This document shows, in pieces, positions 22,276-55,926 of a stretch of DNA of 64,000 bases. The notes under the pieces were generated by a model. It did not search any database and was not told the DNA's origin. It was given only the letters and a program-made list of their open reading frames with translations. Source of the DNA: a virus. Within the stretch, counting starts at the first letter, position 1, and each line of letters starts with the position of its first letter. A program made the translations under genes and the position numbers. The stretch covers positions 32,001-96,000 of the IMG/VR virus record IMGVR_UViG_3300019888_000107; one strand, given 5' to 3'.

Positions 22276-22350
22276 GGTTGCCAACCTCGTGCACGGTTGC
22301 CAACCTATTGCACGCTTGCCAACCTTTTGCACGTTGCCAACCTACTGCAC
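22276..22350. repeat. Four tandem 18-19 bp repeats G(G/C)TTGCCAACCTnnTGCAC
   Basis: Directly visible; the first two units contain the palindrome GGTTG-C-CAACC. Confidence 0.85.
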
Positions 22351-22679
22351 GCGAATGAGCATAACCCGCACAGAAGGGCTCGACCATGACCCCTGAACAA
22401 GATCAACCGTGGGGAACCTGTCAAGTCCTACTGAACGTGTGCGTAACGCAGTGAATGGCCCGTCTGGTCACCTGGCTAGGCGGGTCGTTTGCCCTGTGCA
22501 CACGGGCTGTCAGAGCCTCGGTTCGGCGTAACACAAACGGTCGGTTTAGGACGATCATGGGAGCCATTGAAAAGCCCCGGTCAGCCCTGTCACACAATCC
22601 GTGAACTAAATCTCTGTAACGCCTTACCTGCACTTGTGGAATACGTTACACTCAAGCCAGTCAACAAAGGAGAACGATC

Positions 22680-30914: not shown

Positions 30915-33900
30915 CTAGGCGGCATCGGCCCAAGCGAATGCTGGCGCGGACGGTTCGGCAATGATCGAGATCCCGTTCATCTGCGTCTCCATCGCGGCAA
31001 CCAGCGCGGAGGTAGCCTCGACCGCATCCTCCGCCGGCACGAATACGTCCAACTCGTCGTGCACCGGCAACAATACGCACCGACCCCACCGCGTGTCGCC
31101 CCAGCGGATCAGGGCGTCGACCAGGAGTTCACGGGCACTGCCCTGAATCGCGGCGTTCGGACCCTTATGCGGGAGCCGCGGATCGAAATGGATGATCCGC
31201 CCTGAATAGCTGGGATACGCAACATGCCCGGCCTTGATGGCGTTGCGGATGTCAGCCGACCAGGCGGTCAGACCGGGTGTCATCGCGTCCAACGTATCAA
31301 CGGCGGCTTGCGCAACCGCATGAGTGGTGCCACCCTGGGCGGCAAGGGTCGGGATACCCCCGCCGTATAAGCGTCCGAATACAATTCGTTTGGCCACATA
31401 GCGATGTTCTTTCTTCGGTGTGGGCTCGCCCGTCGGGTTTTTCTCGGATACCTCGGACGCTTTCGGACATGCCCCAAACACCTGCAACGCGATCTCAGCG
31501 TGCAAGTCACGACCCTCAGCGAGAAATTGCCGTAGCGTCGTATCCCCGGACAACGCGGCGGCCACTCGCAACTCCACACCACTAAAGTCCGCGCCAATCA
31601 TCAACTGCCCCGGATCGGCGGTGATACACGCGCGAACTCCACCTTGCCTACTAAGTTGTTGAAGATTCAACCTTACACAAGACATGCGTCCCGTCACGGT
31701 GCCCAAGGTATAAACCGTCGGACGCACCCGACCATCACCACGCTCACACAGTTGCGTCATAGGCTCCAGGAACGTACCGATAACCGTCGAATGATGCCGA
31801 TAATCAAGTACCGCGCGAGCCACGTCCCCGACTGCACCCTGATCGAGTTCCGCAAGGGGTTCAAGGACTTCTTTGGCTACCGAGGGTGCACCGGTTTTTT
31901 TCGATAGCGGCAACGTCGCGCCGAGCTCAACCATCACGGCGGCCACCTGCTTGCTCGACCCCGCGTTCTCAATCCCGAACGTTGCAACCCGTTCGCGGGC
32001 GGCGGCTTGGGCGGGTCGGTGTTCGGCCAGCTTCGCGGCTATGTGCTCGGCGTCCAGGCGTACCCCGTGATGAGCCACCCGAGCTGTCATGCGTTGAGCG
32101 AGCCGTTCCCGATAGACAATCTTAGGGTCGGCGATAGGAAGTTCGCGTGCGACAGCGTGGGTGTCGAGGACATCAGACGCGGCGTAACGGATCATCGTCG
32201 AGCGGGTGTAGTCGCATTGTGCCCAACCGGACCGTTCCACCGGAGTTTCAATCTTGGTATCGGTCAACCAACCGGCGGCCTTGAACAGTGCGGCACGTCC
32301 CTCACCAGCCCCCGGTGCGACCGAGCGGGTACCAAGCACAGCATCCGCCAACTTCTTCAAACCGGGATCGCTGCCGGTGGACTGCGGGTCGCCGAGCTTC
32401 GCGGGGATGACGGTGTCGTGCATCCGATCCCACGCCGATTCCAGCTCGATCAGCTCAGCGGCCACCAGAGGCACCAGATCAGCCGTGGCGGAGTGGGCGT
32501 GCAGGAACGTCGCTTCGGCCAGCAGCGTGGCAACCAGAGCCGTCTGAGCGGGGTCCTGCGCATCGAGCACCACCGCGGCTTCGTCGTCGCCGAGCTGGAT
32601 GGTGCGCAGCGCGTACAGCGCATGGCCGACGGGGTAGCCGGTGTTCTCGATATCGACGGTGAGCGCGCCACCGGTTCGCGCCAGGCAATCCCGCACGACC
32701 TTGAGCACCTGGACCTCAGTGAGCTGCACCGCGTGACCACCGCGATCAACTCCAGCGGGCAGACCGATGTACTCGCCAGCGGCGGCGTCGATACCAGCCC
32801 GGCACATGGCCAGCTTCTCCGCGACCTTGACTTTCGCCTTGAGCGTTTTCAGTTCCGCTCGCGCGTCGACCTTGCTGATGCCACGCGTATTTGCCCACAC
32901 CGTGACCTGATGGGGCGTCACGTTCCGTAGCGGCGAGTAGCCCTCGGGGAGCCCATCGGGCAGCGCTGCACCCGCGTCGGCGCATTTTCGCAGGTCAACG
33001 GCAGTATTTTCAGCCAAATCCGCCTCGGTGTGGAGGGTTTCGGCAGGTGTGGAGGGTTCCGAAATCCTTGTTTTTGCTGGTGAAGCCGCGTTTTTGTGAT
33101 CAACTGTGGAGGGTGGAGGGTCGTCACATATAGGGGCCATATATGGCGCATGTGGTATACGTACTTCTTCTTCTTCTACTTCTTGTGTATTTGTTGTCTG
33201 TAAACCCTCCACACCCTCCACAGAAGAAGAAAAAACGGGGGGTGAGCTGGGGTTTTCGGGTGTGGAGGGTTGAGCGCTAGACCCTCCACCAACCCTCCAC
33301 GGACCCTCCACATTTGGAGTGATTCCAGTTTGGCGAGCCTGGTGAGCAGCGACCTCAGCCGAGATCGGTGCTCCCGGCGAACTCGCCGTCCCGGGACCCC
33401 CCGGAACAGAATCGAAAAATCCGTGCCCCCCGTCGACCCGGATCCGCAGTGCCCGGTACCGCCCATCCCTACGGTCGGTAGCGGGATAGTTCAGCTCGTT
33501 GAGGCGAACACCCCATTTTGTGATCTCCAGATGGAGGTTTTTGGCGACGTTGTGGTTGCGGCACCAGCCGATGAACGCGTCGTGCAGCGTCCCGGATCGG
33601 GTGCCGGCCTCCCACGGTTCGCAGGCGTCGTCCACCCACTGCTTGACGGGGTCCTGCTCCTCGGCGATCTCCTCAGCCTGGAAGCGGATGCCCGGCGGCG
33701 CGGCCGAGGTGAGTGCGGAGTTGGGGTCGGCTAACCAGGCGGCGGCTTCAGCCATCAGGAACGCCAGCACCCCCGGAGCCTCGCCGGCCCACACCGCTGG
33801 GGTGAGCGCGCGCCGGACGGTTTCCACCACCTGGGGAGCACCCTCACACGGGATCAACCGGGCCCGCCGTCGGACGGCCGCATCGACCAGCGAAGGCTTG

Positions 33901-35960
33901 TGGTTGGCCGTGAGGATCAGCGTGTGGGTGGGCCGGAACGTGATGGGGTTTTGGTTCATCGCGTTCCCGGTCAGCTCGCCCCCACCGGAGTACCTCTTCA
34001 AGCGCTCCTGAGGGCCCTTGGCGTCTGACGGGGCCTCGTCGATGAAGGACAACCGCCGCCCTTTGAGCGCGAAAATAATCGAGTCATGGGAGTTGTCCCC
34101 ACTGAGTAGTTTGGGGTTGGCGGCGTGCCCGTAGGTTCCCAAACACGACATGATGAGCGTGATGACCGACGTTTTCCCGGTTCCGGCTGGGCCTAGCAGA
34201 ATCGGTAGCGCCGCGTCGGGATACCCGGTCACCGAAATGGACAGCACCCGCAGCACCCACGCTCGGATGGCGGCGTCCGGCCACACCGCGACCAGCAGCG
34301 CGTCCCAATGCGGGGTGGGCATGATCTCGGGCATGACCCCGGCCGAGGATAGGTGCACGATTTTGTCGCCGACGTCGGTCAGCGCCGGACCGTCCCCGCT
34401 GGCGCGCAAGTCATAGGGCATCCCTCCGGCCCACAAAATCTCCGGATCCGAGTCCAGATCGGCCAGTTTTACCGCGCTGGGATGGATACCACCAGCAACA
34501 GTCCGCCGCATGGAAGCCGCAACAGCGTTGGCGCCCGCATTGTTTTCCATCCGTGTCCGTCGCGCGAACTGCCGGTGAGCGACGGTGTACTCAGTTTTCT
34601 TTGTGGGTAGTTCGGGATCCCCAGCGGGCATCAGTTCGACAATTTCCTCCACGGCGCGCCCTGGCAGTGCGTCTCCGTGTAGTTCCCAGCACAGCGGGCC
34701 CCGTTGCAGCCACCCGTTTCTGGTGTCGCTGGCATGGCGAATCATGGGCCGGCACCGATACAGCACAGCCTTGGCAATTTTGTGGTCGGTGTCGCATTGC
34801 GGATCGAACAGCTCAGCACCGATGACCTGCCGCCAGCCGTAGTCGATCGGGGCTGTGATCGGACCGGGCAACGGCTCGTAACGCTCCCCGGACGGGTCAA
34901 ATTCACCACGGTCGTCAATGGGTGCAGGCGCCTGTACGGTGTCGTAGCCGCCGAGGGTCAGACACGGATCCCGATCAACCGGCGAACTCGCCCCGACGGC
35001 GGTGACGGCTTTGCGAGCGGAACTGAGTAGCATAGATTCGAACTCGTGGGCCCGGCCCTCACCCGACGTTAGTTCTTCCCACAACTCACGCAGGATCTCC
35101 AGCGCAACACCCACGCCCGGGTGCCCGCTGGCGCCGAGTTGCACCACGTTGTGGGTGCGGGCGGTCATGACGTCGTGACGAGAGCCGCTTTCGGCTTTAC
35201 CCAGCTCAAGGACCGCCACCTGCGTCGCCCCGGCAACGTCGGAACACGCCACCCGCTCATCAGCCCGCAACGCGCACAGCAACTGCCAGCCGCTACCCGG
35301 GTCGGCCGCCGCCGCGCTCGCCTCGGTAGCCAACGCACCCAACTCCGCCACCCAACGAGCGGGCAATTCAGTCAGACCCGCCGGCCCCGGCACTACCCCA
35401 TCACCCGCTAACCCACCGCCGGGGTCATACCAGCGATACCGCGCACCCTCGGCCAGATCGCGGTGAATCGACGGGGCCACCACGACGTAGCGGTGATGAC
35501 GCTGGATGACCTCGATCGAGCCCCCCAAATGCGTGCCATACCGCCCGGCCGGAACGCGAAACAGCCGAATACCCGACGGCCCTGGTCCGGTCTCACTGCC
35601 CCGGGCGGTGGAGATCCAGGTAGCCGGCAGCACACCCCAGCTCGCCTCATACCCCGCGAGCACGTCGGCACCATTTTTGACTACCTCCCGGTCGGCCGCA
35701 CCCGATTCCCCCGGCACGACCTTGGTGTAGTGGTCGACGTCAAGCCCGATCACCCCGGCGGGTAGCCGCAGCGCGATGGAGTAATCGGCGTACACACCCT
35801 CCGACCACGCGGTGAGCTGTTCGGGCGACGTGTCGATCCCGTCGGCGCCGGTGAACCCGGTGGGTGGTGGAAACTTCTCGGCGGGCGGAACAGGCAGGAT
35901 CCCGCGCCAGCCGGCGGTGTAGTACGCGCTCAGAGCGGATGCGAACACAGGGGAATTCAT
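30915..35960 (-). CDS. Prim-Pol + SF3 (D5-like) helicase + family A DNA polymerase fusion
   Basis: IGLDVDHY and VVAPSIH; GPAGTGKTS and FIDEA; exonuclease TVDIEN; PolA motifs ADFSGVELR, AKRIVFGRLYGG, VHDEL. Confidence 0.88.
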   Translation of the reverse strand: MNSPVFASALSAYYTAGWRGILPVPPAEKFPPPTGFTGADGIDTSPEQLTAWSEGVYADYSIALRLPAGVIGLDVDHYTKVVPGESGAADREVVKNGADVLAGYEASWGVLPATWISTARGSETGPGPSGIRLFRVPAGRYGTHLGGSIEVIQRHHRYVVVAPSIHRDLAEGARYRWYDPGGGLAGDGVVPGPAGLTELPARWVAELGALATEASAAAADPGSGWQLLCALRADERVACSDVAGATQVAVLELGKAESGSRHDVMTARTHNVVQLGASGHPGVGVALEILRELWEELTSGEGRAHEFESMLLSSARKAVTAVGASSPVDRDPCLTLGGYDTVQAPAPIDDRGEFDPSGERYEPLPGPITAPIDYGWRQVIGAELFDPQCDTDHKIAKAVLYRCRPMIRHASDTRNGWLQRGPLCWELHGDALPGRAVEEIVELMPAGDPELPTKKTEYTVAHRQFARRTRMENNAGANAVAASMRRTVAGGIHPSAVKLADLDSDPEILWAGGMPYDLRASGDGPALTDVGDKIVHLSSAGVMPEIMPTPHWDALLVAVWPDAAIRAWVLRVLSISVTGYPDAALPILLGPAGTGKTSVITLIMSCLGTYGHAANPKLLSGDNSHDSIIFALKGRRLSFIDEAPSDAKGPQERLKRYSGGGELTGNAMNQNPITFRPTHTLILTANHKPSLVDAAVRRRARLIPCEGAPQVVETVRRALTPAVWAGEAPGVLAFLMAEAAAWLADPNSALTSAAPPGIRFQAEEIAEEQDPVKQWVDDACEPWEAGTRSGTLHDAFIGWCRNHNVAKNLHLEITKWGVRLNELNYPATDRRDGRYRALRIRVDGGHGFFDSVPGGPGTASSPGAPISAEVAAHQARQTGITPNVEGPWRVGGGSSAQPSTPENPSSPPVFSSSVEGVEGLQTTNTQEVEEEEVRIPHAPYMAPICDDPPPSTVDHKNAASPAKTRISEPSTPAETLHTEADLAENTAVDLRKCADAGAALPDGLPEGYSPLRNVTPHQVTVWANTRGISKVDARAELKTLKAKVKVAEKLAMCRAGIDAAAGEYIGLPAGVDRGGHAVQLTEVQVLKVVRDCLARTGGALTVDIENTGYPVGHALYALRTIQLGDDEAAVVLDAQDPAQTALVATLLAEATFLHAHSATADLVPLVAAELIELESAWDRMHDTVIPAKLGDPQSTGSDPGLKKLADAVLGTRSVAPGAGEGRAALFKAAGWLTDTKIETPVERSGWAQCDYTRSTMIRYAASDVLDTHAVARELPIADPKIVYRERLAQRMTARVAHHGVRLDAEHIAAKLAEHRPAQAAARERVATFGIENAGSSKQVAAVMVELGATLPLSKKTGAPSVAKEVLEPLAELDQGAVGDVARAVLDYRHHSTVIGTFLEPMTQLCERGDGRVRPTVYTLGTVTGRMSCVRLNLQQLSRQGGVRACITADPGQLMIGADFSGVELRVAAALSGDTTLRQFLAEGRDLHAEIALQVFGACPKASEVSEKNPTGEPTPKKEHRYVAKRIVFGRLYGGGIPTLAAQGGTTHAVAQAAVDTLDAMTPGLTAWSADIRNAIKAGHVAYPSYSGRIIHFDPRLPHKGPNAAIQGSARELLVDALIRWGDTRWGRCVLLPVHDELDVFVPAEDAVEATSALVAAMETQMNGISIIAEPSAPAFAWADAA
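33030..33311. repeat. Ten copies of ACCCTCCAC/GTGGAGGGT around an AT-rich core (ori candidate)
   Basis: Counted directly in both orientations. Confidence 0.75.
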
Positions 35961-41204: not shown

Positions 41205-42172
41205 TACGACGCTTTCCCCGATTCGCTAGCTTTTGCCAACTGCCCTGGATTGCGTGCCCGCCATTGGGCTAGCCGGATGTAGTCGGGGGAAAGCTCGACG
41301 CCAATACCCATCCGACCAAGGGCTACCGCAACGATGGCTGTGGTGCCGGTACCAGAGAACGGATCGAGCACGACACCGCCGACGGGGGACCAGCCTTTGA
41401 TGAGCCGCCTAGGCCACTCCATCGGAAACGCAGCGAAGTGCTTGATCCCGAGGTCGGCGGGGACCGTCAGCGGCTGTGCTGTGATGGACCAGACCGAGCC
41501 GGGTAGTTTGCCGCGGGGATTCTGGGTGCTAGTGCGACCGCCGCCGGCCAGGTCGAGCCGGGCGTCTGGCCGATCGCGTCGGTTCCGCGCGTGTGCCGAG
41601 TTGTCGGTGTGCGGCTCCCGGATAGCGTCGATCGAGCTGTAGTAGCGCGGTCGCAGGGTGAGGTGGATCCAGTCCTCATGCGAGCGACGGACCCGATCAG
41701 TGACGGACTCGGGAATGGGGTTGGGCTTGGACCAGATCACCACTGCCCTGGCGATCAGCCCCAGTTCGTCCACCGCGCGGATCCGGAAGCGCTCGGGCAA
41801 CAGCAGCAGAGACTTCGGTGGGACTCCGGCGACCCGGCCTGAGCGACGTTTGGCGTGCTGATCACTGAGACCCCCACCCCGATGCCGCGCGCCGAGCTTG
41901 GCCAGGCCGGACTGTCCGCTGTTGCCGGTGGAGTACTTGTCGCCGAGGTTGATGAAGATTGACCCCGTGGGCTTGAGTACCCGGACCATCTCGGCAGTGC
42001 AGACGATCAGCGCGTCCAGGAACTCGGCCGGCGTGGGCTCACCACCGATCTGCCCCTCGATCCCGTAGTCACGCAGCCCGAAGTACGGCGGGGAGGTAAC
42101 GATCAGATCAACCGACTCGTCGGCTAATGGCAGATTGCGGGCGTCGCCTTGAATGAATGTCGGGATCGTCAC
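41204..42172 (-). CDS. N4-C/N6-A DNA methyltransferase (beta class)
   Basis: VTSPPY before DPFSGTGTT; HFAAFP. Confidence 0.88.
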   Translation of the reverse strand: MTIPTFIQGDARNLPLADESVDLIVTSPPYFGLRDYGIEGQIGGEPTPAEFLDALIVCTAEMVRVLKPTGSIFINLGDKYSTGNSGQSGLAKLGARHRGGGLSDQHAKRRSGRVAGVPPKSLLLLPERFRIRAVDELGLIARAVVIWSKPNPIPESVTDRVRRSHEDWIHLTLRPRYYSSIDAIREPHTDNSAHARNRRDRPDARLDLAGGGRTSTQNPRGKLPGSVWSITAQPLTVPADLGIKHFAAFPMEWPRRLIKGWSPVGGVVLDPFSGTGTTAIVAVALGRMGIGVELSPDYIRLAQWRARNPGQLAKASESGKAS

Positions 42173-45033
42173 GATGCCTTCCTCAATTTGCGAACAGACG
42201 CGCCACCCAGCAGCTCAGCCACAATGCGCGGATCCTGAACTAGGTCCCCAAGTTGCCCGGCTTTCTCTCGCAATACCGATCTCACACGGGTATCAATCGT
42301 GTTTTTGGCCAGCACATCTATGATTTCAATACATTCGTGCCCCTCACTCCCTATCCGATGCAGCCGATCTTCACTCTGGAGCGCTTCCACCAGCGACCAG
42401 GGACGTTGCAAAAACACGCAACACGACGCCGCTGTGAGTGTGATTCCAACCCCGCCGGCCCCCGTGGTGGCGCAAATCAGATCCAGCTCACCCGATTGGA
42501 ACGCCGCAATTGTCTTAGTCCGTTCAGTCATGGATTGCCCACCGACGATGTAGCCCACCCGACGCCCAGCCCCAGCCGCGGCCTCCCCGGCCAACATCAC
42601 CAACTGACGGGAGGGTGCGAATGCCACCACCGACGTTTCGGGGCGCTCGGCGCAGATTTCGAGGAGGGCGTCGACTTTCCAGCTGGGCGCTTTCAGGGTG
42701 ACCGACTGGTGAATCTGCTCTACGTCGAGCCCGTTAACGGTAATGATTTCCGTTGTCGTGTGCACGTCTGTTGCGGCGGAAGCTAATTGCGACAGCCGGG
42801 TCAGCTGCGCCAGGATTCCCATGACGGACATTTCGGTGCCGTCGGGCAGCTCGGCGAGCATGTCGGCTTCCATCGCGTCATAGGTACGCCGGTATTCGGC
42901 CGGGAGTTCGACGGTGCGGACGCTGTACACCTTCGGGGGTAGCTCGGTGAGCACATCGGCTTTCGCCACCCGCCGGTACTGCCCGAGCAGCGCGGTGCGG
43001 AATTCCTCTTGAGTGGCCGGGTGCAGTCCCAGGACGGTTTCGGAGTAGTCGCCGGGGATGGACAGCAGGTAGCGGTTGCACCAGCGTTCTTTCGACGGCC
43101 ACGCGGTCGGTGCCAGGGCGTCGAGGGTGGTCCAGAGGTTGCCAGGATGGTGTGTGATCGGGGTTCCGGATAGCGCGACGAAGTTGCTGGCACGACGGGC
43201 TAATTGACGCGATGCTCTAGACCGATTCGCGCCTACGGATTTGAGCAAATGTGACTCATCCGCCACAACAGACACAGGACGCATCCGCAGTAACGGGCCC
43301 GGTTTCGACGCACTACCGGTGTCGCGCCAGGCGGTGTCATAGCTGGACACATAGACATCAGCGATGCCGGACAAGGCATGTCGACGCGCCGGTATTCCAC
43401 GCCAGGCGACGGTGCGCCACTGCGGTGCCCAGTTCTGGAAGGTTTCGACCCAGGGATCCACCACCGACGCCGGGCACACCACCACCACCGGCAGCACAGG
43501 AGCGACTTCCGCACGTTCGACCAAGCCCAAGATGGTGGTTGGGGTTTTCCCGGTGTTGTGGGTAGGAATCAGTGCGGTGTCGGTGAGGTAGACGTGCTCG
43601 TCGTCCGAGTCCAACTCGATGCAGCACACCTCGGCGTAGCCGGCACGTTCGATCGACTCGATCGTTCGAGGCGGGTTTCGTCGCTGCACCCGTTGCGCGG
43701 CAGCTGCCCAGATGTCGCCCTTGCGGGGTAGCGCGAAGGGATTCGGCCCGTCCGCGGGAAAGCGGATTAGCACGCGGTGCTTCGGGAGACACTCGACCCG
43801 CTCGCCGCTCGCATTACGGTAGCCGGCGGGCTGGGGGTCCGATTCGGTGACAACGGCTCCCAGTGAGCGCGCGAGCCAGGCGACATCCGCGGCAAGCTGG
43901 GGTGAGGCCGACGAGAACTCCACCCCGGCGCCAACCTTGTTAACCGTCCCGTCGGTGTCGAGGAGTCCGGCCAGGACGCTACGACGAACACCTTCTGACG
44001 CGAGTCGATAACACGAATGCACGAATTTGGCGGCCGCCCCCTCCCGGGCACCGAGGTCAGCCAACTGGGATGGAAGCTCGCCATTGCGATGGAAATGCAC
44101 ACTCGGACAACGGTCGCCAGTTGGTCGCCGTGAGGAGGTGCCGAGTTGAGCTGCTGCTTTCTCAACCCGATCTAGGATGAAAGCGTCCGGGCACGTAATC
44201 GACAGATCAGCCCCACCGAGGGCGCCGTCGCCCAGGAGCGCGCCGTAGACGTACGAATCTAGCGGCAGCTCGGCGGAGGCGTTACCGAGATCTCGCAGAA
44301 CCGGCTGCTGGGGAAGGAAGAACTTCGCAGCTCGGCCTTGCCTGCCGTTCGGACCGTGTAACCCGGCTAGCGCGAGTAGGGACGTGGTCAGTACGCGGCC
44401 GCCTCCACGATTCCCGTGACGCTCGTTATGTGTGTAGACGTGCCAGCGGTGCTCAGCAGTGGCCAGCGTGCTGGTTCGATCGTTGAGGGTTACGCGGTAG
44501 ACGGCGTGCCCGTCGGAGAACCTCTTGACCTGCCGGACGCGCTGTTGACACCCATTCGCGCCGTACACGGTGTCGCCCGGTGCGAGATCACCAAGCCGGG
44601 TCCAGCCCTCCGGTGTGAGGATCGGCGTTGTCACCGGCTGCGGACCTGCCTCGTCGAAAAGTAAAGCCCGCCCAAGCGCGGAAATCATCTGAGCGCCCGA
44701 CACTTGATACGAGCGCGGCACCATCCCCGGCGGTGGCGTAACCGACAGCCCAGCCGGCGACGAATCGGGTAACCGGGCCGCTACCTGGGACGTAATCCAC
44801 TCGGTCAGCCGGGGACCCGGCGCCCACCCCGTTCCGAATGTGGAGGCGAGTTGCACGACGCCCGGCCAACTCGCGGCCATGACCAGCGCACCGGGCGGTT
44901 TCGATTGCTTGACCAGGGGCGTGCACAACGCGATCTGCCGGGATGCGTGGATGACGTCGTGCTCCGCGCCGGCCGCCATCAACACGATGCTGGATTCGTC
45001 CGCGGATAGCTCACCGACGATCGTGGCTGGCAT
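42169..45033 (-). CDS. SNF2-family helicase (intein-containing)
   Basis: DEAG|TGKT, DESH, LSGTP, QSEDRLHRIG. Confidence 0.88.
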   Translation of the reverse strand: MPATIVGELSADESSIVLMAAGAEHDVIHASRQIALCTPLVKQSKPPGALVMAASWPGVVQLASTFGTGWAPGPRLTEWITSQVAARLPDSSPAGLSVTPPPGMVPRSYQVSGAQMISALGRALLFDEAGPQPVTTPILTPEGWTRLGDLAPGDTVYGANGCQQRVRQVKRFSDGHAVYRVTLNDRTSTLATAEHRWHVYTHNERHGNRGGGRVLTTSLLALAGLHGPNGRQGRAAKFFLPQQPVLRDLGNASAELPLDSYVYGALLGDGALGGADLSITCPDAFILDRVEKAAAQLGTSSRRPTGDRCPSVHFHRNGELPSQLADLGAREGAAAKFVHSCYRLASEGVRRSVLAGLLDTDGTVNKVGAGVEFSSASPQLAADVAWLARSLGAVVTESDPQPAGYRNASGERVECLPKHRVLIRFPADGPNPFALPRKGDIWAAAAQRVQRRNPPRTIESIERAGYAEVCCIELDSDDEHVYLTDTALIPTHNTGKTPTTILGLVERAEVAPVLPVVVVCPASVVDPWVETFQNWAPQWRTVAWRGIPARRHALSGIADVYVSSYDTAWRDTGSASKPGPLLRMRPVSVVADESHLLKSVGANRSRASRQLARRASNFVALSGTPITHHPGNLWTTLDALAPTAWPSKERWCNRYLLSIPGDYSETVLGLHPATQEEFRTALLGQYRRVAKADVLTELPPKVYSVRTVELPAEYRRTYDAMEADMLAELPDGTEMSVMGILAQLTRLSQLASAATDVHTTTEIITVNGLDVEQIHQSVTLKAPSWKVDALLEICAERPETSVVAFAPSRQLVMLAGEAAAGAGRRVGYIVGGQSMTERTKTIAAFQSGELDLICATTGAGGVGITLTAASCCVFLQRPWSLVEALQSEDRLHRIGSEGHECIEIIDVLAKNTIDTRVRSVLREKAGQLGDLVQDPRIVAELLGGASVRKLRKAS
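43555..44643 (-). mobile_element. Class 3 intein with LAGLIDADG endonuclease (363 aa) in the helicase Walker A motif
   Basis: Pro1 (PQPVTT); W in HRW, C in VCCIE, T in PTHN|T; GALLGDG and LAGLLDTDG. Confidence 0.85.
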
Positions 45034-45105
45034 TAGGCACCCCTCTTGACACGACGCGTCCGGTGCACAAAAATGGAATTGCCCTAGTCGTGCGGGGCAG
45101 GTCGG

Positions 45106-45150
45106 GAAACGGCGCCACCTGTGGTTTTTGCGGGGTGGCGCCGTTTCTTT
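45106..45150. terminator. Strong hairpin upstream of the helicase gene
   Basis: GAAACGGCGCCACC/GGTGGCGCCGTTTC. Confidence 0.55.
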
Positions 45151-45318
45151 ATGGCCAGGAGAGCAGCAGGTACAGCGCCACCCCGCCGGCCACACATCCG
45201 TAAATGGTTAACCACCAGATCCCGCTCACCACCGCCAACACCACCCCCACCACGAGAAGCAGGGTGGACAGGAATGCGGCGATAGCGGCGGCGAGCGGAC
45301 TCCGGTCAAACAACTGAC

Positions 45319-50574: not shown

Positions 50575-50811
50575 TCACCGTCTCGCCGGTGGTGGTTGGC
50601 CGTTGAGTGCGGCGTTGACGGCGATGTGCCGGGGGACCAGCCAGTCTTCCCACCGACGGAATTCCTCGACACCCACCAACGCCTCACACACGGCTCTTGC
50701 TGCGGCTATCTCTTGCATTATCTCGATATTGCCGTTGGAGGCTTTTTGGCGAACCATGCTGCCCAGGATGGCGATCGAGGCCCTGAGTTCGCGTGAGACC
50801 TCAGCTGTCAT
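50575..50811 (-). CDS. Hypothetical protein
   Basis: Coupled ORF. Confidence 0.55.
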   Translation of the reverse strand: MTAEVSRELRASIAILGSMVRQKASNGNIEIMQEIAAARAVCEALVGVEEFRRWEDWLVPRHIAVNAALNGQPPPARR

Positions 50812-51113
50812 GCGCGTTCCCTTTCCGGATGTGTACGCATTTCGTTTTGGGCGGCTACGAGGTACATGAGGTGCGCTACGAGCGATGCCCAGTCGTGCGC
50901 TGTGGCGAGTTCGTGCTCTTCGAAAGCCGTTACCATGCGAGAGATGACCTCACCGGGATCCATACCCCTGGCCAACCACCGACGCATGATTACGATAGGC
51001 CCGTTGGGGCGGAACAGAATATCGTGATAATCGCTGCGGTGTTGGTCCATCGCCGCCAGCGCGAGGGTGCGTTGGGGTCCGTTGGTGGGTGACCACCAGT
51101 CGAGGTCAGCCAT
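50808..51113 (-). CDS. Hypothetical protein immediately downstream of the RAMP gene
   Basis: Start abuts the stop of 51114-51788. Confidence 0.6.
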   Translation of the reverse strand: MADLDWWSPTNGPQRTLALAAMDQHRSDYHDILFRPNGPIVIMRRWLARGMDPGEVISRMVTAFEEHELATAHDWASLVAHLMYLVAAQNEMRTHPERERA

Positions 51114-51788
51114 TTAGACCTTGTCCCACTTCGTTACGGTGTAGGTCCCGTAGCCCTGTGAACGCGTCCCACCGATGCCTTGCTTCGCACCGGTGAGCCA
51201 GATCAGCGCCCACTGTTCGTCGGTGATGAGGAAGTCCGTGACCACGGTGAAGTGCAGTTCCACGTTGTCGCAGTACTCGTCGTAGCGGATCCCGTTACCG
51301 GTGTGGACGTGCACGAAACGCTGCTCGATTCCCGTCGCCTCGGTGCGGTCGAAATGCAGTTTGTTGTCCACCACCATGACGTGCTCGGCGATAAAACCCG
51401 TGGACCCCTTATTGGTCGCACCCCACCCCCGTGACTTGAGCTTGCCGGCCGCAACACACACGTTGCACGCCTCCTTGATAGCTGATTTCAGACAACGGCC
51501 TTCCAGGTATAGGCCCCGGTCGTCACGCTTAAAACCGAGAAGGTGCCTATTGGTGTTGACCTCTTCCACGGCTGCCTCGGGACTGACGCCCCGCTCCAGC
51601 ATGGTCGTGGCCACCATCTCCCGAATGGCCTGGTCGGACTGCTCGCCCATATGACGGCGGATCCACCCCTCGGCCACCTTCGGATCGGTCGGGGTACCGC
51701 CGGCAATGCGGTCCACCAAAAGCGTCCCCTTGTAGGTAAAGGGCCATGCTTGCTTGTGGTAGGCGGCGAATACATCAGTTGAGCTCAT
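51114..51788 (-). CDS. Stand-alone Cas7/Csm3-like RAMP protein
   Basis: LYLEGRCLKSAIKEA (cf. PxIPGSSLKGxxR); thumb-like segment ending RYDEY; C-terminal G-loop GIGGTRSQGYG; AAGGAG RBS. Confidence 0.75.
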   Translation of the reverse strand: MSSTDVFAAYHKQAWPFTYKGTLLVDRIAGGTPTDPKVAEGWIRRHMGEQSDQAIREMVATTMLERGVSPEAAVEEVNTNRHLLGFKRDDRGLYLEGRCLKSAIKEACNVCVAAGKLKSRGWGATNKGSTGFIAEHVMVVDNKLHFDRTEATGIEQRFVHVHTGNGIRYDEYCDNVELHFTVVTDFLITDEQWALIWLTGAKQGIGGTRSQGYGTYTVTKWDKV

Positions 51789-51816
51789 TTCGGGTTCTCC
51801 TTTGTTGGGTTGGTGA

Positions 51817-52915
51817 GGATAGTCGGACGGGAGGGGATTGGGGCGGGGCGGGGCGGCCCGTCGGAACGGGTTGGTGGGGCGGAGGGCGGGGGGTGGGGCA
51901 GGCGCGGCGCGGCTTGTCGTACGGGACTGGTTCGGGATGGCGCGGTTTGTCGGATGGGGCAGGCGTTGAGTCGGGTAGTCGGAGCGAATTGGTCACGGTC
52001 TCGGGCAGGCGCGGCTTGTCGGAGGGGGTACGGCCTGATGTGGCCTGGAAACGGGACGGCTCGTCGGGATGGGCAGGAAACAGGTTTGGTGCGGATAGTC
52101 GGGTGTGGGCAGACACGATCGGGGCTTGGCATGGGGTGGTTTTGTCGGAGCGGACCGGCGTGGCGCGGCGTGGCATGTCGGGTTAGGGCGGGAGCGGGAC
52201 CGGATCGGGTAGTCGGAGGGGGCTGGTTTGGGCTGCCTCTGGGATGTCGGATGGGATTGGGATGGGTGGGCTTGTCGGTATGGGCCGGGACGGCTCGGTA
52301 CGGCATGGCTCGTCGGATAGGAGCGGTCCGGTGCGGCGCGGTAGGGCACGGCTGGTCGGAATGGTGCGGGGTTGATGTGGTTGGGGTCGGCCAGTCGGAT
52401 GGGAGGGGAGGGGGTCGGGGCGGAACGGGGTCGGCCCGTCGGATGGGAGGGGGTCGGGGCGGTAGGGCCTGGGGTGGCTTGTCGGAGGGGGTCGTCTTGG
52501 GATGGCTTGTCGGAGTGGGTCGGTTAGTCGGATTGGATCGGTCTGGGGCGTGGCGGGTTGGCTAGTCGGGATGGGTCTGATCAGGGTTCGGTTTGTCGAA
52601 TGGCTTGGGGGGATATGAGCGGGCTCGTCGGTTAACGGGGTTGGGCGGACGCGGGTCGGCTCGTCGGTGCGGGTAGGTAGGGATTGGCTCGTCGGAGGGG
52701 GTCGGGACGGCGCTGGCTGGTTAGGCTCGTCGGCGTGGTTCGGGTTGGATAGTCGGATTGGGTGGGATCTTGGCGTGGCTTGTCGGAAGGGCATGGTGCC
52801 GGGATGGCTTGTCGGAGTGGATCGGGGCTGGATGGGATGGCTTGTCGGAAGGGCATGGTGTGGTTACGGGATGGTCAGTCGGACAGAGCTGACGGGGATG
52901 GGGACGGAGTGTCGA
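51817..52915. repeat. Array block 1: about 32 units of (GGNNN)n-GTC
   Basis: GGNNNGTCG(G) recurs about every 20-45 nt with 5-nt GG periodicity between. Confidence 0.85.
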
Positions 52916-52924
52916 GCCGGAATG

Positions 52925-53143
52925 TCATTTCTTATCGGAGTTCTTCAACAGCATCACGATCCACCAGCCCGGCAGATAAAATGGCCACAACCACACGCAG
53001 CACAGGGACATGACCGCTGCACCCACGTAGTCTTCGGTTTCAATGGGGTCGCCCATGGAGTTGAGAAACCATCGTGCGGTGGGTACCAGGAACCCCAGCA
53101 CGCCCGCTAGGTACACCATCAGCACAATCGTTCCGGGGTCCAT
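52925..53143 (-). CDS. Small 2-TM membrane protein between array blocks
   Basis: Two hydrophobic helices; non-repetitive sequence. Confidence 0.6.
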   Translation of the reverse strand: MDPGTIVLMVYLAGVLGFLVPTARWFLNSMGDPIETEDYVGAAVMSLCCVWLWPFYLPGWWIVMLLKNSDKK

Positions 53144-53244
53144 CAGCGGCGGGTTGCCTGGTTGTAGGCCGCCGCCCGCATGGAAGCCGCTACCTCAGCG
53201 TTGATCCGAGTGACGTCGTCCACATCGGGTGGCAGGGTGCTCAT
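53143..53244 (-). CDS. Possible 33-aa peptide
   Basis: MSTLPPDVDDVTRINAEV..; TGATG coupling to the next gene. Confidence 0.35.
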   Translation of the reverse strand: MSTLPPDVDDVTRINAEVAASMRAAAYNQATRR

Positions 53245-53258
53245 GGGGATCGACTCGA

Positions 53259-53510
53259 ATCGTGTCGAATGGCATGGGTCGGGTAGGCGCGGCTTGTCGA
53301 ACGACATGGGTCGGGTAGGGGCGGCTTGTCGACCGGCTAGGCAGTGTTGGCCGGTCGGGGCGGCGTGGGTAGGGATGGTCACGGCTTGGCCTGTCGGATG
53401 GGGTTGGGGCGGCAGGGAGTAGCTTGTCGAAGGGGGTAGGGAGGGGATGTATCGGCATGTCGAAAGGCCTGGGTCGGGGATGGCGCGGCTCGTCGAAACG
53501 GGAGTGTCGT
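53259..53510. repeat. Array block 2: about 7-8 units, mostly GGNNNGTCGA
   Basis: Same pentamer/GTC grammar as block 1. Confidence 0.75.
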
Positions 53511-54050
53511 TTACCGCCCGTACTTGCGCAGAGAATCAAACATCGTGGTGAGTTCGTGATCGGCGTAATGCTCGCTGACGGTTCGGGTGCCAACCTTTTT
53601 GGCCAGGGCAGTCATAAACGCGTCCATGAGTCGGTTGTCTTCGGTCCGTCGTGCGTAAGTGCCCGCGACGTAGAGCAGGTCATCCCGTCGCAGTTTCCCG
53701 AGTGGTTTGCGGGAGCCGTCTTCCAACGTGAAGGGCACGTCCAGCCACCCTCGCAATTGCGTACTGTCGCCGGCCTGGTGTGTCGTGACCGCTTCGGCGA
53801 ATGCGGCGGGTCGTGCTCGGTGCCGGGCGGCGGTGCGGATCGAACGGTCCCGGTCATTGATCGCCATTCGAATGAACTGCGTCGCCTGAGCCCGCAGCCA
53901 CCCGTCGACCAGCTCGGGATCCTCAACCCGCAGTCGCTCTACTATCTCAGTGGCCACCACACAGGACGTATAGGCGCCGGAGCTGGTGGCGCTGTCAATC
54001 ACCCGACGCATTTCGGTGCCGTAGTCGCGCACGGCGACGGACGTCGTCAT
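53511..54050 (-). CDS. Hypothetical protein upstream of the array
   Basis: 179-aa ORF with AGAGG RBS. Confidence 0.7.
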   Translation of the reverse strand: MTTSVAVRDYGTEMRRVIDSATSSGAYTSCVVATEIVERLRVEDPELVDGWLRAQATQFIRMAINDRDRSIRTAARHRARPAAFAEAVTTHQAGDSTQLRGWLDVPFTLEDGSRKPLGKLRRDDLLYVAGTYARRTEDNRLMDAFMTALAKKVGTRTVSEHYADHELTTMFDSLRKYGR

Positions 54051-54092
54051 ACCTGGTCATACCTCTCTGTGCGCGCTAGGATGCGCCCTTGA

Positions 54093-54132
54093 GAGGGGCC
54101 ACGCATCCGCTGCCAAGCTGCCGTGGCCCCTC
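54093..54132. other. 11-bp intergenic hairpin
   Basis: GAGGGGCCACG/CGTGGCCCCTC. Confidence 0.5.
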
Positions 54133-54149
54133 CCCTGACTGTGATTCCC

Positions 54150-54971
54150 CTATGCGGCGGCCTTGCGCCGGCTGTTCTCGCGGAACCAGTTGCCCAGGCG
54201 AATACCCTTCGCACCGTTCAGGATCTCTACGCCGGCCGCGGCCACGGCGAACCGACGCGAGCAGTGCGTCTTTTGCTTGGTCTTCTCGGCCAGGGCCAGC
54301 AGCGCGTTGAGGCCACCGGGGATGGTGGCGAACCGGGCGATGACGTCGGTGTCGTGGAGCTGGCCTTCGTAGCGATGCAGCAGGATCCCGATCCCGTCGA
54401 TGACCGCCGAGGCCAACCCGAAGTCGCCATAAGCGGTGTGCACGATCCGCAAGGTGCGGCTCAGGTTGTCGCCGCCGGTCTGCTGGTAGATACGCCGCAG
54501 GGTGCCGATGCAGTGCACCGAGCCCTCCGTCCTGTCCATCGACACGTGCAGGCCCAGCTCGTCGAGGATGTCGCTGAGGGCGCAGTCTTCCTCGCGGCCC
54601 GCCTGGACACCGACCCGATACCTATCGAAGCCGTTGACAGCCAACACATTGTTGAGACGCAGGAACATTTCGGCTTCCTGCTGATCGGTGAGGCCGCTGA
54701 ACACGGCGCAATCGAGCTTCGTCTCACCGAGCCCCATTCCACGCATCGCCTCAATACGGTGCTGTCCGTCGATCACGTAGTGGTGACCGTCGCGGTAGTT
54801 CAGGGTGGGCACACCCACCTGCTCGATGTCGAACTGCGCGATCAGGTGGTTGACGTGGTAGGGCTTGAGTTCGCGCTGCACGAGCGGTGAGACGCGCATG
54901 ACGGCGAGGGCGACGCTCTGAATTTCAGCGTGTCGCTGAACGTCTCCGTCGGTGTTAGGCTGCTTGGGCAC
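54150..54971 (-). CDS. ParB/Srx-like DGQHR protein (DUF6551-like)
   Basis: VQREL..YVIDGQHRIEA..EAEMFLRLN. Confidence 0.75.
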   Translation of the reverse strand: MPKQPNTDGDVQRHAEIQSVALAVMRVSPLVQRELKPYHVNHLIAQFDIEQVGVPTLNYRDGHHYVIDGQHRIEAMRGMGLGETKLDCAVFSGLTDQQEAEMFLRLNNVLAVNGFDRYRVGVQAGREEDCALSDILDELGLHVSMDRTEGSVHCIGTLRRIYQQTGGDNLSRTLRIVHTAYGDFGLASAVIDGIGILLHRYEGQLHDTDVIARFATIPGGLNALLALAEKTKQKTHCSRRFAVAAAGVEILNGAKGIRLGNWFRENSRRKAAA

Positions 54972-55926
54972 GGTGGTTCAGTTCCTTCCGGAGTTTGCGC
55001 AAGTAGCGCATGGATTCATCAAGGGATTGCACCCATTTTGTCGCTTCGGCCGCATAGACTTGGTCGAAGTCGTCAAGATTGAGAAGGCTTTCGGTGGCCC
55101 TCACGGTGTTTGCGATGTCATCCACGGTGGACCCGATCACTGCGATGGGGTCCACCGTGTTTCGCGCTTTACCGATGATGCGGTCAGCACGAATCTCAAT
55201 GCCGCTTCGGGCGGCGAGTCTGCGAACGTAGAGGGGAAGTAACCCAAGTTGGTCGGCGATCTCGTGCGAGGTATGACGCTGCGCCAATACACGGATTTGT
55301 TCGATGCGTTCGGTCACAGGTCGCTTGAGCCGTTCATCAGCGGCGTTCTGGACCTTGCGCGCGATGTTGGCCCGTGTCAGGTTGTTTTCTGTACGACCTT
55401 CCGCGAGCGCTGCGTCGAACTCGTCGTTGGTCACATCGTCGGTCAATCGGTAGATCCCAGGCTTACTGGGACCAGACCCGAGTAGCGCGCTCTTGCGGGC
55501 GAAATCCGTCGGGCCGGGTTTGGTGGGGGCCACCAGGTGACCTGAACCAGTTTGGTGTTGGTTGCCACGGAAGTTGCCGCTCTCATTCCGTCCGCGGATT
55601 TCGCCGGCTTCCTGGCCGTTGCGGATCGCCTGGCCAATGCCACGTTCGGCCCTTCTGACCATTTCAAGGGCGTCGAGCTGGATCTCCTGTGCGAGGCCCT
55701 TCTGCCGGGTCATTTCGTGCACGGTGGCCGCCCACACCCGGAACGCGGCGATGGGCGTCGGGTCGCTGCCCTTGGTGGCGACCGCGAGCCAGGCTCGTGA
55801 CTCGACCAGCGCCTGAGTGATGACCACGCCTCGTTGAGCATCTGACATGGCCTCAATCTCGGCTGTGGTGATCGGGACGGGGACCAGCTCGCTGGGGGTG
55901 CTGGCGCTGCGTGGGGTGTCGGTCAT
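54955..55926 (-). CDS. Hypothetical DNA-binding protein
   Basis: HTH-like TSHEIADQLGL..YVRRL. Confidence 0.6.
   Translation of the reverse strand: MTDTPRSASTPSELVPVPITTAEIEAMSDAQRGVVITQALVESRAWLAVATKGSDPTPIAAFRVWAATVHEMTRQKGLAQEIQLDALEMVRRAERGIGQAIRNGQEAGEIRGRNESGNFRGNQHQTGSGHLVAPTKPGPTDFARKSALLGSGPSKPGIYRLTDDVTNDEFDAALAEGRTENNLTRANIARKVQNAADERLKRPVTERIEQIRVLAQRHTSHEIADQLGLLPLYVRRLAARSGIEIRADRIIGKARNTVDPIAVIGSTVDDIANTVRATESLLNLDDFDQVYAAEATKWVQSLDESMRYLRKLRKELNHRAQAA

What the first reader, a model, noticed from the sequence alone, without database searches (positions are those of the whole stretch)
51114..51788. Stand-alone Cas7/Csm3-like protein inside a phage early operon
Motif order matches Cas7-group RAMPs: a beta strand ending RIAGG, LYLEGRCLKSAIKEA, a thumb-like EQRFVHVHTGNGIRYDEY segment, then helix plus Gly loop GIGGTRSQGYG near the C-terminus. 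Even without the array it could act as an anti-CRISPR subunit mimic or an RNA-binding regulator (inference).
Basis: partly seen in the sequence, partly recalled or inferred. Interest (0 to 1): 0.8.

Follow-up and report, generated by a model that had tools for sequence, protein, structure and literature searches.

The report
Phage VIPR guide-RNA silencing system
The lone Cas7-like gene is real and is the effector (Vipr) of a VIPR system, a phage-borne, CRISPR-related RNA-guided DNA silencer first described in 2026 preprints; it sits next to its partner gene and a 1.7-kb array of about 35-40 short 5-base-step guides, so it is a new member of a known kind.

Summary
Window 51114-51788 (-) is a 224-aa gene carrying all four quoted motifs. 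It belongs to a large unnamed family with 515 clusters at 50% identity.

Its AlphaFold model matches Cas7/Csm3 proteins almost exclusively. The best VIA Z-score is 10.5, to type VII Cas7, and Foldseek E-values to Csm3 are about 1e-4.

The gene is not truly stand-alone:
- **Partner gene:** a conserved 179-aa helical gene (53511-54050) accompanies it in 53 of 57 related loci.
- **Repeat array:** the spacer between the two genes (51822-53505) holds 23 perfect (NNNGG)n runs of at least four units, against 9 in the other 62 kb of the window on both strands. The runs are punctuated by GTCGG.

This is the published anatomy of VIPR systems: Vipr, vap and a vrRNA array. A profile comparison links the family to the characterised phage SUSP1 Vipr (93% probability, E 2.7e-7).

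Three things differ from SUSP1. The guides are short and contiguous, the partner gene is unrelated to vap1, and the G-rich strand lies opposite the genes. The last point suggests that the C-rich strand is the guide RNA.

The anti-CRISPR mimic idea has no support. Other follow-up agents in this scan reached the VIPR reading on other DNA, and I checked the papers and the features myself. Natural targets and the transcribed strand remain untested.

The parts
51114..51788 (-). vipr: 224-aa minimal RAMP (Cas7-like) protein. It has an RRM core, a helical insert at residues 34-83, helix-1, a thumb hairpin at 153-184 and a G-loop at 204-214.
   Evidence: The ORF and motifs are and the family. The AF2 model has pLDDT 75. 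Foldseek against the PDB returns only Csm3/Cas7 at the top. VIA-wide gives Z 10.5 to type VII Cas7, and 46 of the 50 listed rows are CRISPR RAMPs. hhalign to the SUSP1 Vipr clade gives 93.3% probability, E 2.7e-7.
51822..52910 (.). Proximal guide array: about 30 units of 5-8 pentamers. It reads NNNGG on the + strand and CCNNN on the gene strand. Each unit is delimited by GTCGG (CCGAC on the gene strand) plus a 3-nt phase shift. It ends 33 nt before the vipr ATG.
   Evidence: Perfect runs are listed, units, the boundary matrix and position frequencies. Which strand is transcribed was not determined.
52925..53143 (-). 72-aa ORF with two hydrophobic segments, sitting in a 300-bp gap that splits the array. 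It is not conserved in related loci, so it is probably an insertion and not part of the system.
   Evidence: The ORF is. tblastn found no hit in 55 related loci. The interval contains no pentamer runs.
53264..53505 (.). Distal guide array: about 8 units of the same type and orientation. It starts directly after the stop codon of the partner gene.
53511..54050 (-). vap-like accessory gene: a 179-aa, almost all-helical protein of no known family or fold.
   Evidence: An HMM of this family finds it on the same strand as vipr in 53 of 57 related loci with enough flank (tblastn). The AF2 model has pLDDT 92.6. There is no fold match and no Pfam or PHROG hit. It is homologous to the gene preceding the vipr homologue in Microcystis phage Mae-JY09. 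It shows no similarity to SUSP1 Vap1.

Best explanation
The gene encodes a Vipr, the single RAMP effector of a Viral Interference Programmable Repeat (VIPR) system. The system here is vap-like gene (53511-54050), guide array (51822-53505) and vipr (51114-51788), all read on the minus strand.

The mechanism below is taken from the characterised SUSP1 and P. fulva systems and is not shown for this locus:
1. The array is transcribed and cut into short vrRNAs.
2. Vipr protomers polymerise along each vrRNA, one protomer per 5-nt repeat.
3. The G-loop, helix-1 and thumb hold the fixed bases of each repeat and expose the two variable bases.
4. The exposed dinucleotides pair with double-stranded DNA, skipping every third target base.
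5. The filament silences transcription of the bound gene, typically in a competing phage, satellite or prophage.

What is shown here is the RAMP fold, profile homology to a bona fide Vipr, the conserved two-gene-plus-array architecture and the 5-nt code with two fully variable positions. What is inferred is RNA binding, filament formation, DNA silencing and the identity of the targets.

I further infer, with about 60-70% confidence, that in this actinophage clade the transcribed guide strand is the C-rich strand, co-directional with vap and vipr.
For: **Fold.**
- The Foldseek PDB list consists only of type III Csm/Cmr, type VII Cas7 and Cas7-11 chains, with best E 4.4e-5.
- The Foldseek-independent VIA search of 48,161 chains gives 8yhd_A Z 10.5 (136 aligned, rmsd 3.9) and Csm3 6ae2_B Z 9.3 (141 aligned, rmsd 3.2). 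CRISPR RAMPs make up 46 of the 50 listed rows.
- BFVD returns three viral proteins, one named 'Cas system-associated RAMP superfamily protein'.

**Homology to a characterised Vipr.** hhalign of 76 family members against 33 members of the SUSP1 Vipr clade gives probability 93.3%, E 2.7e-7 over 135 columns. The helix-1 motif and the G-loop align, and SUSP1 R179 matches the invariant R209.

**Array.**
- There are 23 perfect (NNNGG)n runs of at least four units in 51822-53488 on one strand, against 5 elsewhere on that strand and 4 on the other strand in 64 kb.
- In related arrays the two positions before GG are uniform at about 25% each base, and the position after GG is G-biased at 47%. This is the fixed-trinucleotide-plus-NN layout of vrRNAs.

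**Conservation of the system.**
- 49 of 67 related loci have at least 3 such runs next to vipr.
- Run density is 1.87 per kb near vipr and 0.22 per kb elsewhere in the same loci.
- The vap-like gene is present in 53 of 57 loci.

**Non-CRISPR context.** The 110-kb viral record has no Pfam RAMP hit and no CRISPR array.

[quoted passage not shown] Every skipped base falls on a wobble position.

**Published definition.** I read the VIPR papers.
Against: - No sequence library names the protein. Pfam, PHROGs and NCBIfam give nothing, and PADLOC gives only Cas7_IIIg at E 0.03.
- The link to SUSP1 Vipr covers only the C-terminal 60% and needs profiles. A single-sequence hhalign gave only 12% probability.
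- The model's helical insert at residues 34-83 has low confidence.
- The residues that read the two guanines in SUSP1 (H17, R138, D177, W178) are not conserved here.
- The GG strand is opposite to the genes, unlike in SUSP1.
- The accessory gene is unrelated to vap1 and has no recognisable DNA-binding fold.
- Units are only 5-8 repeats long, against 9-16 in SUSP1, and have no structured 3' tail. Rfam finds nothing.
- No RNA data were available. No convincing target of this window's own guides was found.
Confidence: 0.85

Rival explanations
1. It is a RAMP-fold RNA- or ssDNA-binding protein with a different job, such as regulating the phage's own transcripts. The pentamer array would then act at the DNA level, for example as iterons or a centromere for the nearby ParB-like DUF6551 protein, and would not encode guides.
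For: A ParB-like DUF6551 gene lies 100 bp upstream of the vap-like gene. The array motif YCGACNRGCC occurs 23 times in one orientation, as binding-site arrays do. No RNA evidence exists.
Against: The ParB-like gene is found in only 4 of 55 related loci, whereas array, vap-like gene and vipr travel together. The array has two fully variable positions per 5-nt step, which suits a code and not a protein-binding site. There is profile homology to a Vipr that is shown experimentally to use such RNAs (paper read).
Confidence: 0.08
2. It is an anti-CRISPR subunit mimic. The lone Cas7-like protein would incorporate into, or poison, the host's type I or type III effector backbone.
For: It has a Cas7-like fold in a phage with no other cas genes. 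Hosts of related prophages are Actinomycetota. From general knowledge, many of these carry type I or type III systems.
Against: The family is not closest to any one host Cas7 type, with only 5-23% identity to solved RAMPs. It always travels with its own partner gene and guide-like array, which a mimic would not need. Its nearest characterised relative is an RNA-guided silencer.
Confidence: 0.03
3. It is a decayed or miniaturised CRISPR-Cas remnant, for example type IV- or type III-derived, captured by the phage. The array would be a degenerate CRISPR.
For: Structural matches include type IV Csf2 (Z 8.2-8.6) and type III or VII Cas7.
Against: There is no repeat-spacer periodicity of 55-80 nt and no other cas gene. 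The array period is 5 nt. The family is large and uniform in length and architecture across 515 clusters, which does not fit decay.
Confidence: 0.02

Closest known systems
Type II VIPR system of Escherichia phage SUSP1 (Vipr ALH47069.1, vap1 ALH47068.1, four vrRNAs; bioRxiv 10.64898/2026.04.26.720920 and 10.64898/2026.04.26.720927)
   Same: Both are phage-borne. Both have a single small RAMP with an RRM core, helical insert, helix-1, thumb and G-loop. Both form a two-gene module with one accessory gene. Both have flanking non-coding arrays with 5-nt steps in which two bases vary freely. The G-loop arginine is conserved (R179 in SUSP1, R209 here). Profile homology is 93% probability.
   Different: - Vipr is 224 aa here against 195 aa in SUSP1, and the two are not detectable by BLAST.
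- The guanine-reading residues are replaced. The thumb tip is RYRP in the SUSP1 clade and QYEEY here, and the G-loop has A-S/T where SUSP1 has D-W.
- Repeats are NNNGG with a G-biased third base, not YNNGG.
- Units are 5-8 repeats, contiguous, delimited by GTCGG plus a 3-nt shift, and have no structured tail.
- GG lies on the strand opposite vipr in 44 of 49 loci, but on the vipr strand in SUSP1.
- The accessory gene is unrelated to vap1 and lies upstream, not downstream.
- There are about 35-40 guides here against 4 in SUSP1.
CRISPR type III Csm3/Cmr4 and type VII Cas7 backbone subunits
   Same: The fold is the same, with Z 8.5-10.5 over 123-149 aligned residues. The motif order is also shared: beta1 ending in Gly-Gly, a G-x-x-x-K helix-1 motif, a thumb hairpin and a C-terminal Gly-rich loop.
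   Different: There is no sequence-level match, with Pfam RAMP PF03787 negative. There is no crRNA repeat-spacer array and no Cas10, Cas5, Cas6 or small subunit. A helical bundle is inserted after beta1. Whether the family's conserved Asp35 corresponds to the Csm3 catalytic Asp was not tested.
Non-canonical VIPR arrays found by a genomic language model (bioRxiv 10.64898/2026.10.21.760802)
   Same: These are 5-nt-period arrays next to Vipr-like folds, with fixed trinucleotides other than GGY (read).
   Different: The motifs listed there are GAC/NN, CAC/NN, WGT/NN and TGH/NN. None of these is the GG(N)/NN pattern seen here, or its complement NN/(N)CC. Their arrays repeat 10 times, whereas units here have 5-8 repeats.

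Membership tests
VIPR system (Vipr + vap + vrRNA) | Vipr is a minimal RAMP with an RRM core, glycine-rich loop and thumb | tested here: met
   The AF2 model matches Cas7/Csm3 across residues 11-224. The G-loop G-[LI]-G-A-x-R-S-Q-G-[FY]-G is conserved in 76 members. A beta-hairpin spans 153-184.
VIPR system (Vipr + vap + vrRNA) | Sequence relationship to characterised Vipr proteins (the SUSP1 clade, which includes a marine-sediment metagenome protein of the kind used as the paper's seed) | tested here: met
   hhalign of A2 against A3 gives probability 93.3%, E 2.7e-7 over 135 columns. It covers helix-1 to the C-terminus only, and the N-terminal third did not align.
VIPR system (Vipr + vap + vrRNA) | Minimal locus outside any CRISPR-Cas context, usually two genes (vipr plus an accessory gene), mostly in viruses or proviruses | tested here: met
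   The viral record is 110 kb with terminase and portal genes. It has no Pfam RAMP hit and no CRISPR array. The conserved partner gene is present in 53 of 57 loci. I recovered 55 viral and 12 cellular loci.
VIPR system (Vipr + vap + vrRNA) | Flanking intergenic tandem pentamer repeats (YNNGG or a related consensus, at least 4 units) with hypervariable NN | tested here: met
   There are 23 perfect runs of 4-8 units next to vipr, against 9 in the rest of the window. N2 and N3 are uniform. The arrangement is conserved in 49 of 67 loci. The consensus is NNNGG, one of the alternative patterns named in the paper's methods.
VIPR system (Vipr + vap + vrRNA) | The array is expressed as small RNAs that co-purify with Vipr | not testable with these tools
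Only indirect evidence on the transcribed strand is available.
VIPR system (Vipr + vap + vrRNA) | Guides match natural DNA targets by the NN-plus-one-skipped-base rule | tested here: inconclusive
   One guide of L049 matches vipr G-loop codons in 15 loci with the skips at wobble positions. My rough estimate of the chance probability is 0.01-0.04. Otherwise there was no enrichment of skip-1 over other skips in 1 Mb of related DNA. An IMG/VR scan with one window guide gave noise-level hits.
VIPR type II (SUSP1-like) | vap1 accessory gene; YNNGG vrRNAs of 9-16 repeats with a structured 3' tail on the vipr strand | tested here: not met
   The partner gene has no similarity to Vap1. Units are 5-8 repeats with no tail. 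GG lies on the opposite strand. This is therefore not a type II system. Which of the other six published types it belongs to could not be checked, because the paper's tables are not held.
CRISPR-Cas Cas7 (type I/III/IV/VII backbone subunit) | Encoded with other cas genes and a CRISPR repeat-spacer array; matches Cas7/RAMP sequence profiles | tested here: not met
   PF03787 is negative in the whole record although its control genomes score. There is no CRISPR-like repeat. PADLOC gives only Cas7_IIIg at E 0.03, 12 bits.

The most novel reading that the evidence does not exclude
In this actinophage clade the guide may be the C-rich strand. The vap-array-vipr operon would be transcribed as one RNA and cut at the CCGAC punctuation into contiguous guides of about 28-45 nt. 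Vipr would hold an (N)CC trinucleotide instead of GGY, which would be a second 'alphabet' for the VIPR noncontiguous code.

Indirect support:
- The C-rich strand is the gene strand in 44 of 49 loci.
- Arrays fill the vap-vipr spacer to a median of 29 nt from the vipr ATG, which leaves no room for a separate vipr promoter.
- The three loci with inverted upstream arrays keep a gap of at least 140 nt and have a different gene order.
- In L049 the order vipr, array, strong intrinsic terminator all reads on the vipr strand.
- The Arg-rich thumb tip that holds guanine in SUSP1 is replaced by Glu-Glu.
Probability: 0.5. Interest if true: 0.65.

Novelty: new member of a known kind. Interest (0 to 1): 0.5.

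Why it matters
VIPR systems are a newly described class of RNA-guided DNA binders, proposed to predate CRISPR and used by phages against rival mobile elements. This locus adds a large branch borne by actinophages and prophages of Actinomycetota, with 515 clusters at 50% identity. It has an unusually big array of about 35-40 guides, a different accessory protein of unknown fold, and short punctuated guides.

If the guide strand really is the C-rich one, the Vipr scaffold can be retuned to hold a different fixed trinucleotide. That would bear on how the code evolved and on engineering programmable DNA binders. The guide set could also reveal which competing elements this phage fights in its host. 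For annotation, this family of 'hypothetical proteins' can now be named.

Tried and rejected
**Sequence libraries**
- Pfam, PHROGs and NCBIfam gave nothing for Vipr. PADLOC gave only a sub-threshold Cas7_IIIg hit.
- A profile search of PDB sequences gave only noise for Vipr and for the vap-like protein.
- Rfam found no family, hammerhead included, in 50800-54200.

**Structure and similarity of the partner gene**
- Fold searches of the vap-like model found no match. VIA Z was at most 4.2 and Foldseek E at least 1.4.
- It shows no similarity to SUSP1 Vap1.

**Transcription signals**
- Promoter and terminator consensus scans of the window locus were at shuffle level.
- Across 50 arrays only one oriented terminator was found, in L049.

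**Target hunting**
- Perfect 1-nt-skip matches of 418 guides against 1.05 Mb of related phage DNA were not clearly enriched over skips 0, 2, 3 and 4, apart from the single L049-to-vipr case.
It gave only small clusters of redundant contigs and phase biases explained by codon composition, so it is uninformative.

**Tools and data that were unavailable**
- The discovery paper's supplementary tables are not held, so the VIPR type (I, III-VII) could not be assigned.

**Ideas set aside**
- I first considered the YCGACNRGCC array as a ParB centromere or iterons. I set this aside because the ParB-like gene is not conserved with the array.
- I did not run complex prediction, because I do not claim that Vipr binds Vap.

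Full report
**The observation**

Window 51114-51788 on the minus strand is a 224-aa ORF. It starts at an ATG preceded by an AAGGAG ribosome-binding site.

The ORF belongs to a large family of proteins of about 220-250 aa that sources call 'hypothetical'. The word-indexed search found 630 hits and the exhaustive search found 515 clusters at 50% identity.

No sequence library names the protein. PADLOC gives only a sub-threshold Cas7_IIIg hit at E 0.03.

**The fold**

An AlphaFold2 model built on 30 homologues has mean pLDDT 75. It is confident everywhere except a helical insert at residues 34-83.

Foldseek against the PDB returns only type III Csm/Cmr, type VII Cas7 and Cas7-11 chains, with best E 4.4e-5.

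The Foldseek-independent VIA search of 48,161 chains gives these top matches:
- type VII Cas7 8yhd_A: Z 10.5, 136 residues aligned, rmsd 3.9
- Csm3 6ae2_B: Z 9.3, 141 residues aligned, rmsd 3.2
- Cmr4, and type IV Csf2 at Z 8.2-8.6

In that list, 46 of the 50 rows are CRISPR RAMPs. BFVD adds three viral proteins, one named 'Cas system-associated RAMP superfamily protein'.

**The context**

The window is bases 32001-96000 of a 110,390-bp IMG/VR virus record estimated to be 88% complete. The record carries terminase, portal, a head protease-like gene and a 1681-aa primase-polymerase.

The gene lies in a minus-strand block that also holds WhiB, DUF397, a Cas4-like exonuclease, an intein-bearing SNF2 helicase and a DNA methylase. 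'Phage replication and regulation operon' is a fair description, but 'early' expression is not testable here. The record has no Pfam RAMP match and no CRISPR array.

**The gene is not stand-alone**

Two further features travel with it.

*Partner gene.* A 179-aa gene at 53511-54050, on the same strand, is found by tblastn upstream of the homologue in 32 of 55 viral loci. With an HMM it is found in 53 of 57 viral and cellular loci that have enough flank. Microcystis phage Mae-JY09 has the same pair as its last two genes. The partner's model is confident (pLDDT 92.6) and almost all-helical, and it matches no known fold.

*Repeat array.* The 1.7-kb spacer between the two genes is a repeat array. 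On the plus strand there are 23 perfect (NNNGG)n runs of four or more units between 51822 and 53488. There are only 5 elsewhere on that strand and 4 on the other strand in the whole window.

The array has these properties:
- Units of 5-8 pentamers start with GTCGG and are separated by a 3-nt phase shift.
- In related arrays the two bases before GG are uniformly distributed, while the base after GG is G-biased.
- 49 of 67 related loci have at least 3 such runs next to the gene, at 1.87 per kb against 0.22 per kb elsewhere.

A 72-aa non-conserved ORF interrupts the array at 52925-53143.

**What this is**

A look-up of earlier notes of this scan pointed to VIPR systems. I then read the primary preprints myself.

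VIPR systems are defined as follows:
- **Vipr:** a minimal RAMP with an RRM core, G-loop, thumb and helical bundle.
- **vap:** one accessory gene.
- **vrRNAs:** pentamer repeats with a fixed trinucleotide (GGY, or a related consensus including NNNGG) and variable NN.

Vipr polymerises on the RNA at one protomer per repeat. It exposes the NN dinucleotides, which pair with dsDNA while skipping every third base, and this silences transcription of rival phages and satellites.

I fetched the characterised SUSP1 locus and collected its clade. Profile-profile alignment to this family gives 93.3% probability, E 2.7e-7, over 135 columns. It matches the helix-1 motif and the G-loop, including SUSP1 R179 against the invariant R209.

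Fold, profile homology, two-gene architecture, 5-nt code and viral context all meet the definition. Expression and targeting could not be tested.

**How it differs from SUSP1**

- **Accessory gene.** It is unrelated to vap1 and lies upstream of vipr.
- **Guides.** They are short, contiguous and punctuated, with no structured tail. This is possibly what the paper calls staggered arrays.
- **Guanine-reading residues.** SUSP1's H17, R138, D177 and W178 are replaced. The thumb tip reads RYRP in the SUSP1 clade but QYEEY here, with E171 in 64 of 76 members.
- **Strand.** GG lies on the strand opposite vipr in 44 of 49 loci. In SUSP1 it lies on the vipr strand.

**Which strand is the guide**

This was not shown directly. 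Several observations favour the C-rich, gene-sense strand:
- Arrays fill the vap-vipr spacer. The median gap is 34 nt after the vap stop and 29 nt before the vipr ATG, and 26 of 33 loci have 60 nt or less before the ATG. The vipr mRNA must therefore run through the array.
- The three loci with inverted upstream arrays (L027, L034, L037) keep a gap of at least 140 nt, and their vap lies downstream.
- In L049 the order is vipr stop, then the C-rich array, then a 16-bp-stem intrinsic terminator with a T-tract, all on the vipr strand.

Two observations favour the G-rich strand. Every characterised VIPR uses GG. The semi-fixed base also lies 3' of GG, as in GGY. I put the C-strand reading at about 60-70% given that the locus is a VIPR system, which is about 0.5 overall.

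**Targets**

Target prediction does not depend on which strand is the guide.

One guide of L049 lies directly downstream of its vipr. Under the 1-nt-skip rule it matches the G-F-G-R-Y-E codons of vipr in 15 loci, including its own, and every skipped base falls on a wobble position. [quoted passage not shown] It is a single case, and my rough estimate of the chance probability is 0.01-0.04.

No convincing target was found for this window's own guides.

**Verdict**

The functional guess of an anti-CRISPR mimic is unsupported.

The gene is the effector of a VIPR system. That kind is known from 2026 preprints, so this is a new, divergent member and not a new kind. Other follow-up agents in this scan reached the same reading on other genomes.

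Noticed in passing
L049:10655-10745 (IMG/VR UViG_3300012359_000042): The first guide downstream of this phage's vipr matches, by the dinucleotide-plus-one-skip rule, the G-loop codons (GFGRYE) of its own vipr and of 14 other phages' vipr genes. All skipped bases fall on wobble positions. This could be autoregulation or targeting of rival VIPR systems.
   Followed up: partly
window 52925-53143 (-): A 72-aa ORF with two hydrophobic segments sits in a 300-bp interruption of the guide array. It has no homologue in 55 related loci and looks like an inserted small membrane-protein gene.
   Followed up: partly
window 42172-45195 (-): A 1008-aa SNF2-family helicase carries a LAGLIDADG homing-endonuclease (intein-like) insert at about residues 400-465.
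   Followed up: no
window 30918-35960 (-): A single 1681-aa ORF combines primase/helicase-like and family-A-like DNA polymerase PHROG matches. It appears to be a fused primase-polymerase replication protein.
   Followed up: no
G000 17-69 and 110339-110390 (outside the window): Both ends of the 110-kb viral record carry about 26 copies of the dinucleotide TC. These could be terminal repeats or an assembly artefact.
   Followed up: no
window 22276-22352: There are four tandem copies of a 19-bp unit (GGTTGCCAACCTATTGCAC), possibly operator or iteron sites.
   Followed up: no
L003, L008, L020, L023, L030, L045, L050 (viral contigs): Seven of 55 viral contigs end within 45-400 bp upstream of the vipr homologue. 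This suggests that assemblies often break in the repetitive guide array.
   Followed up: no
window 54153-55926 (-): A ParB-like DUF6551 gene and a phrog_15279 gene lie just upstream of the vap-like gene. They are not conserved with the VIPR module, being present in only 3-4 of 55 loci.
   Followed up: partly
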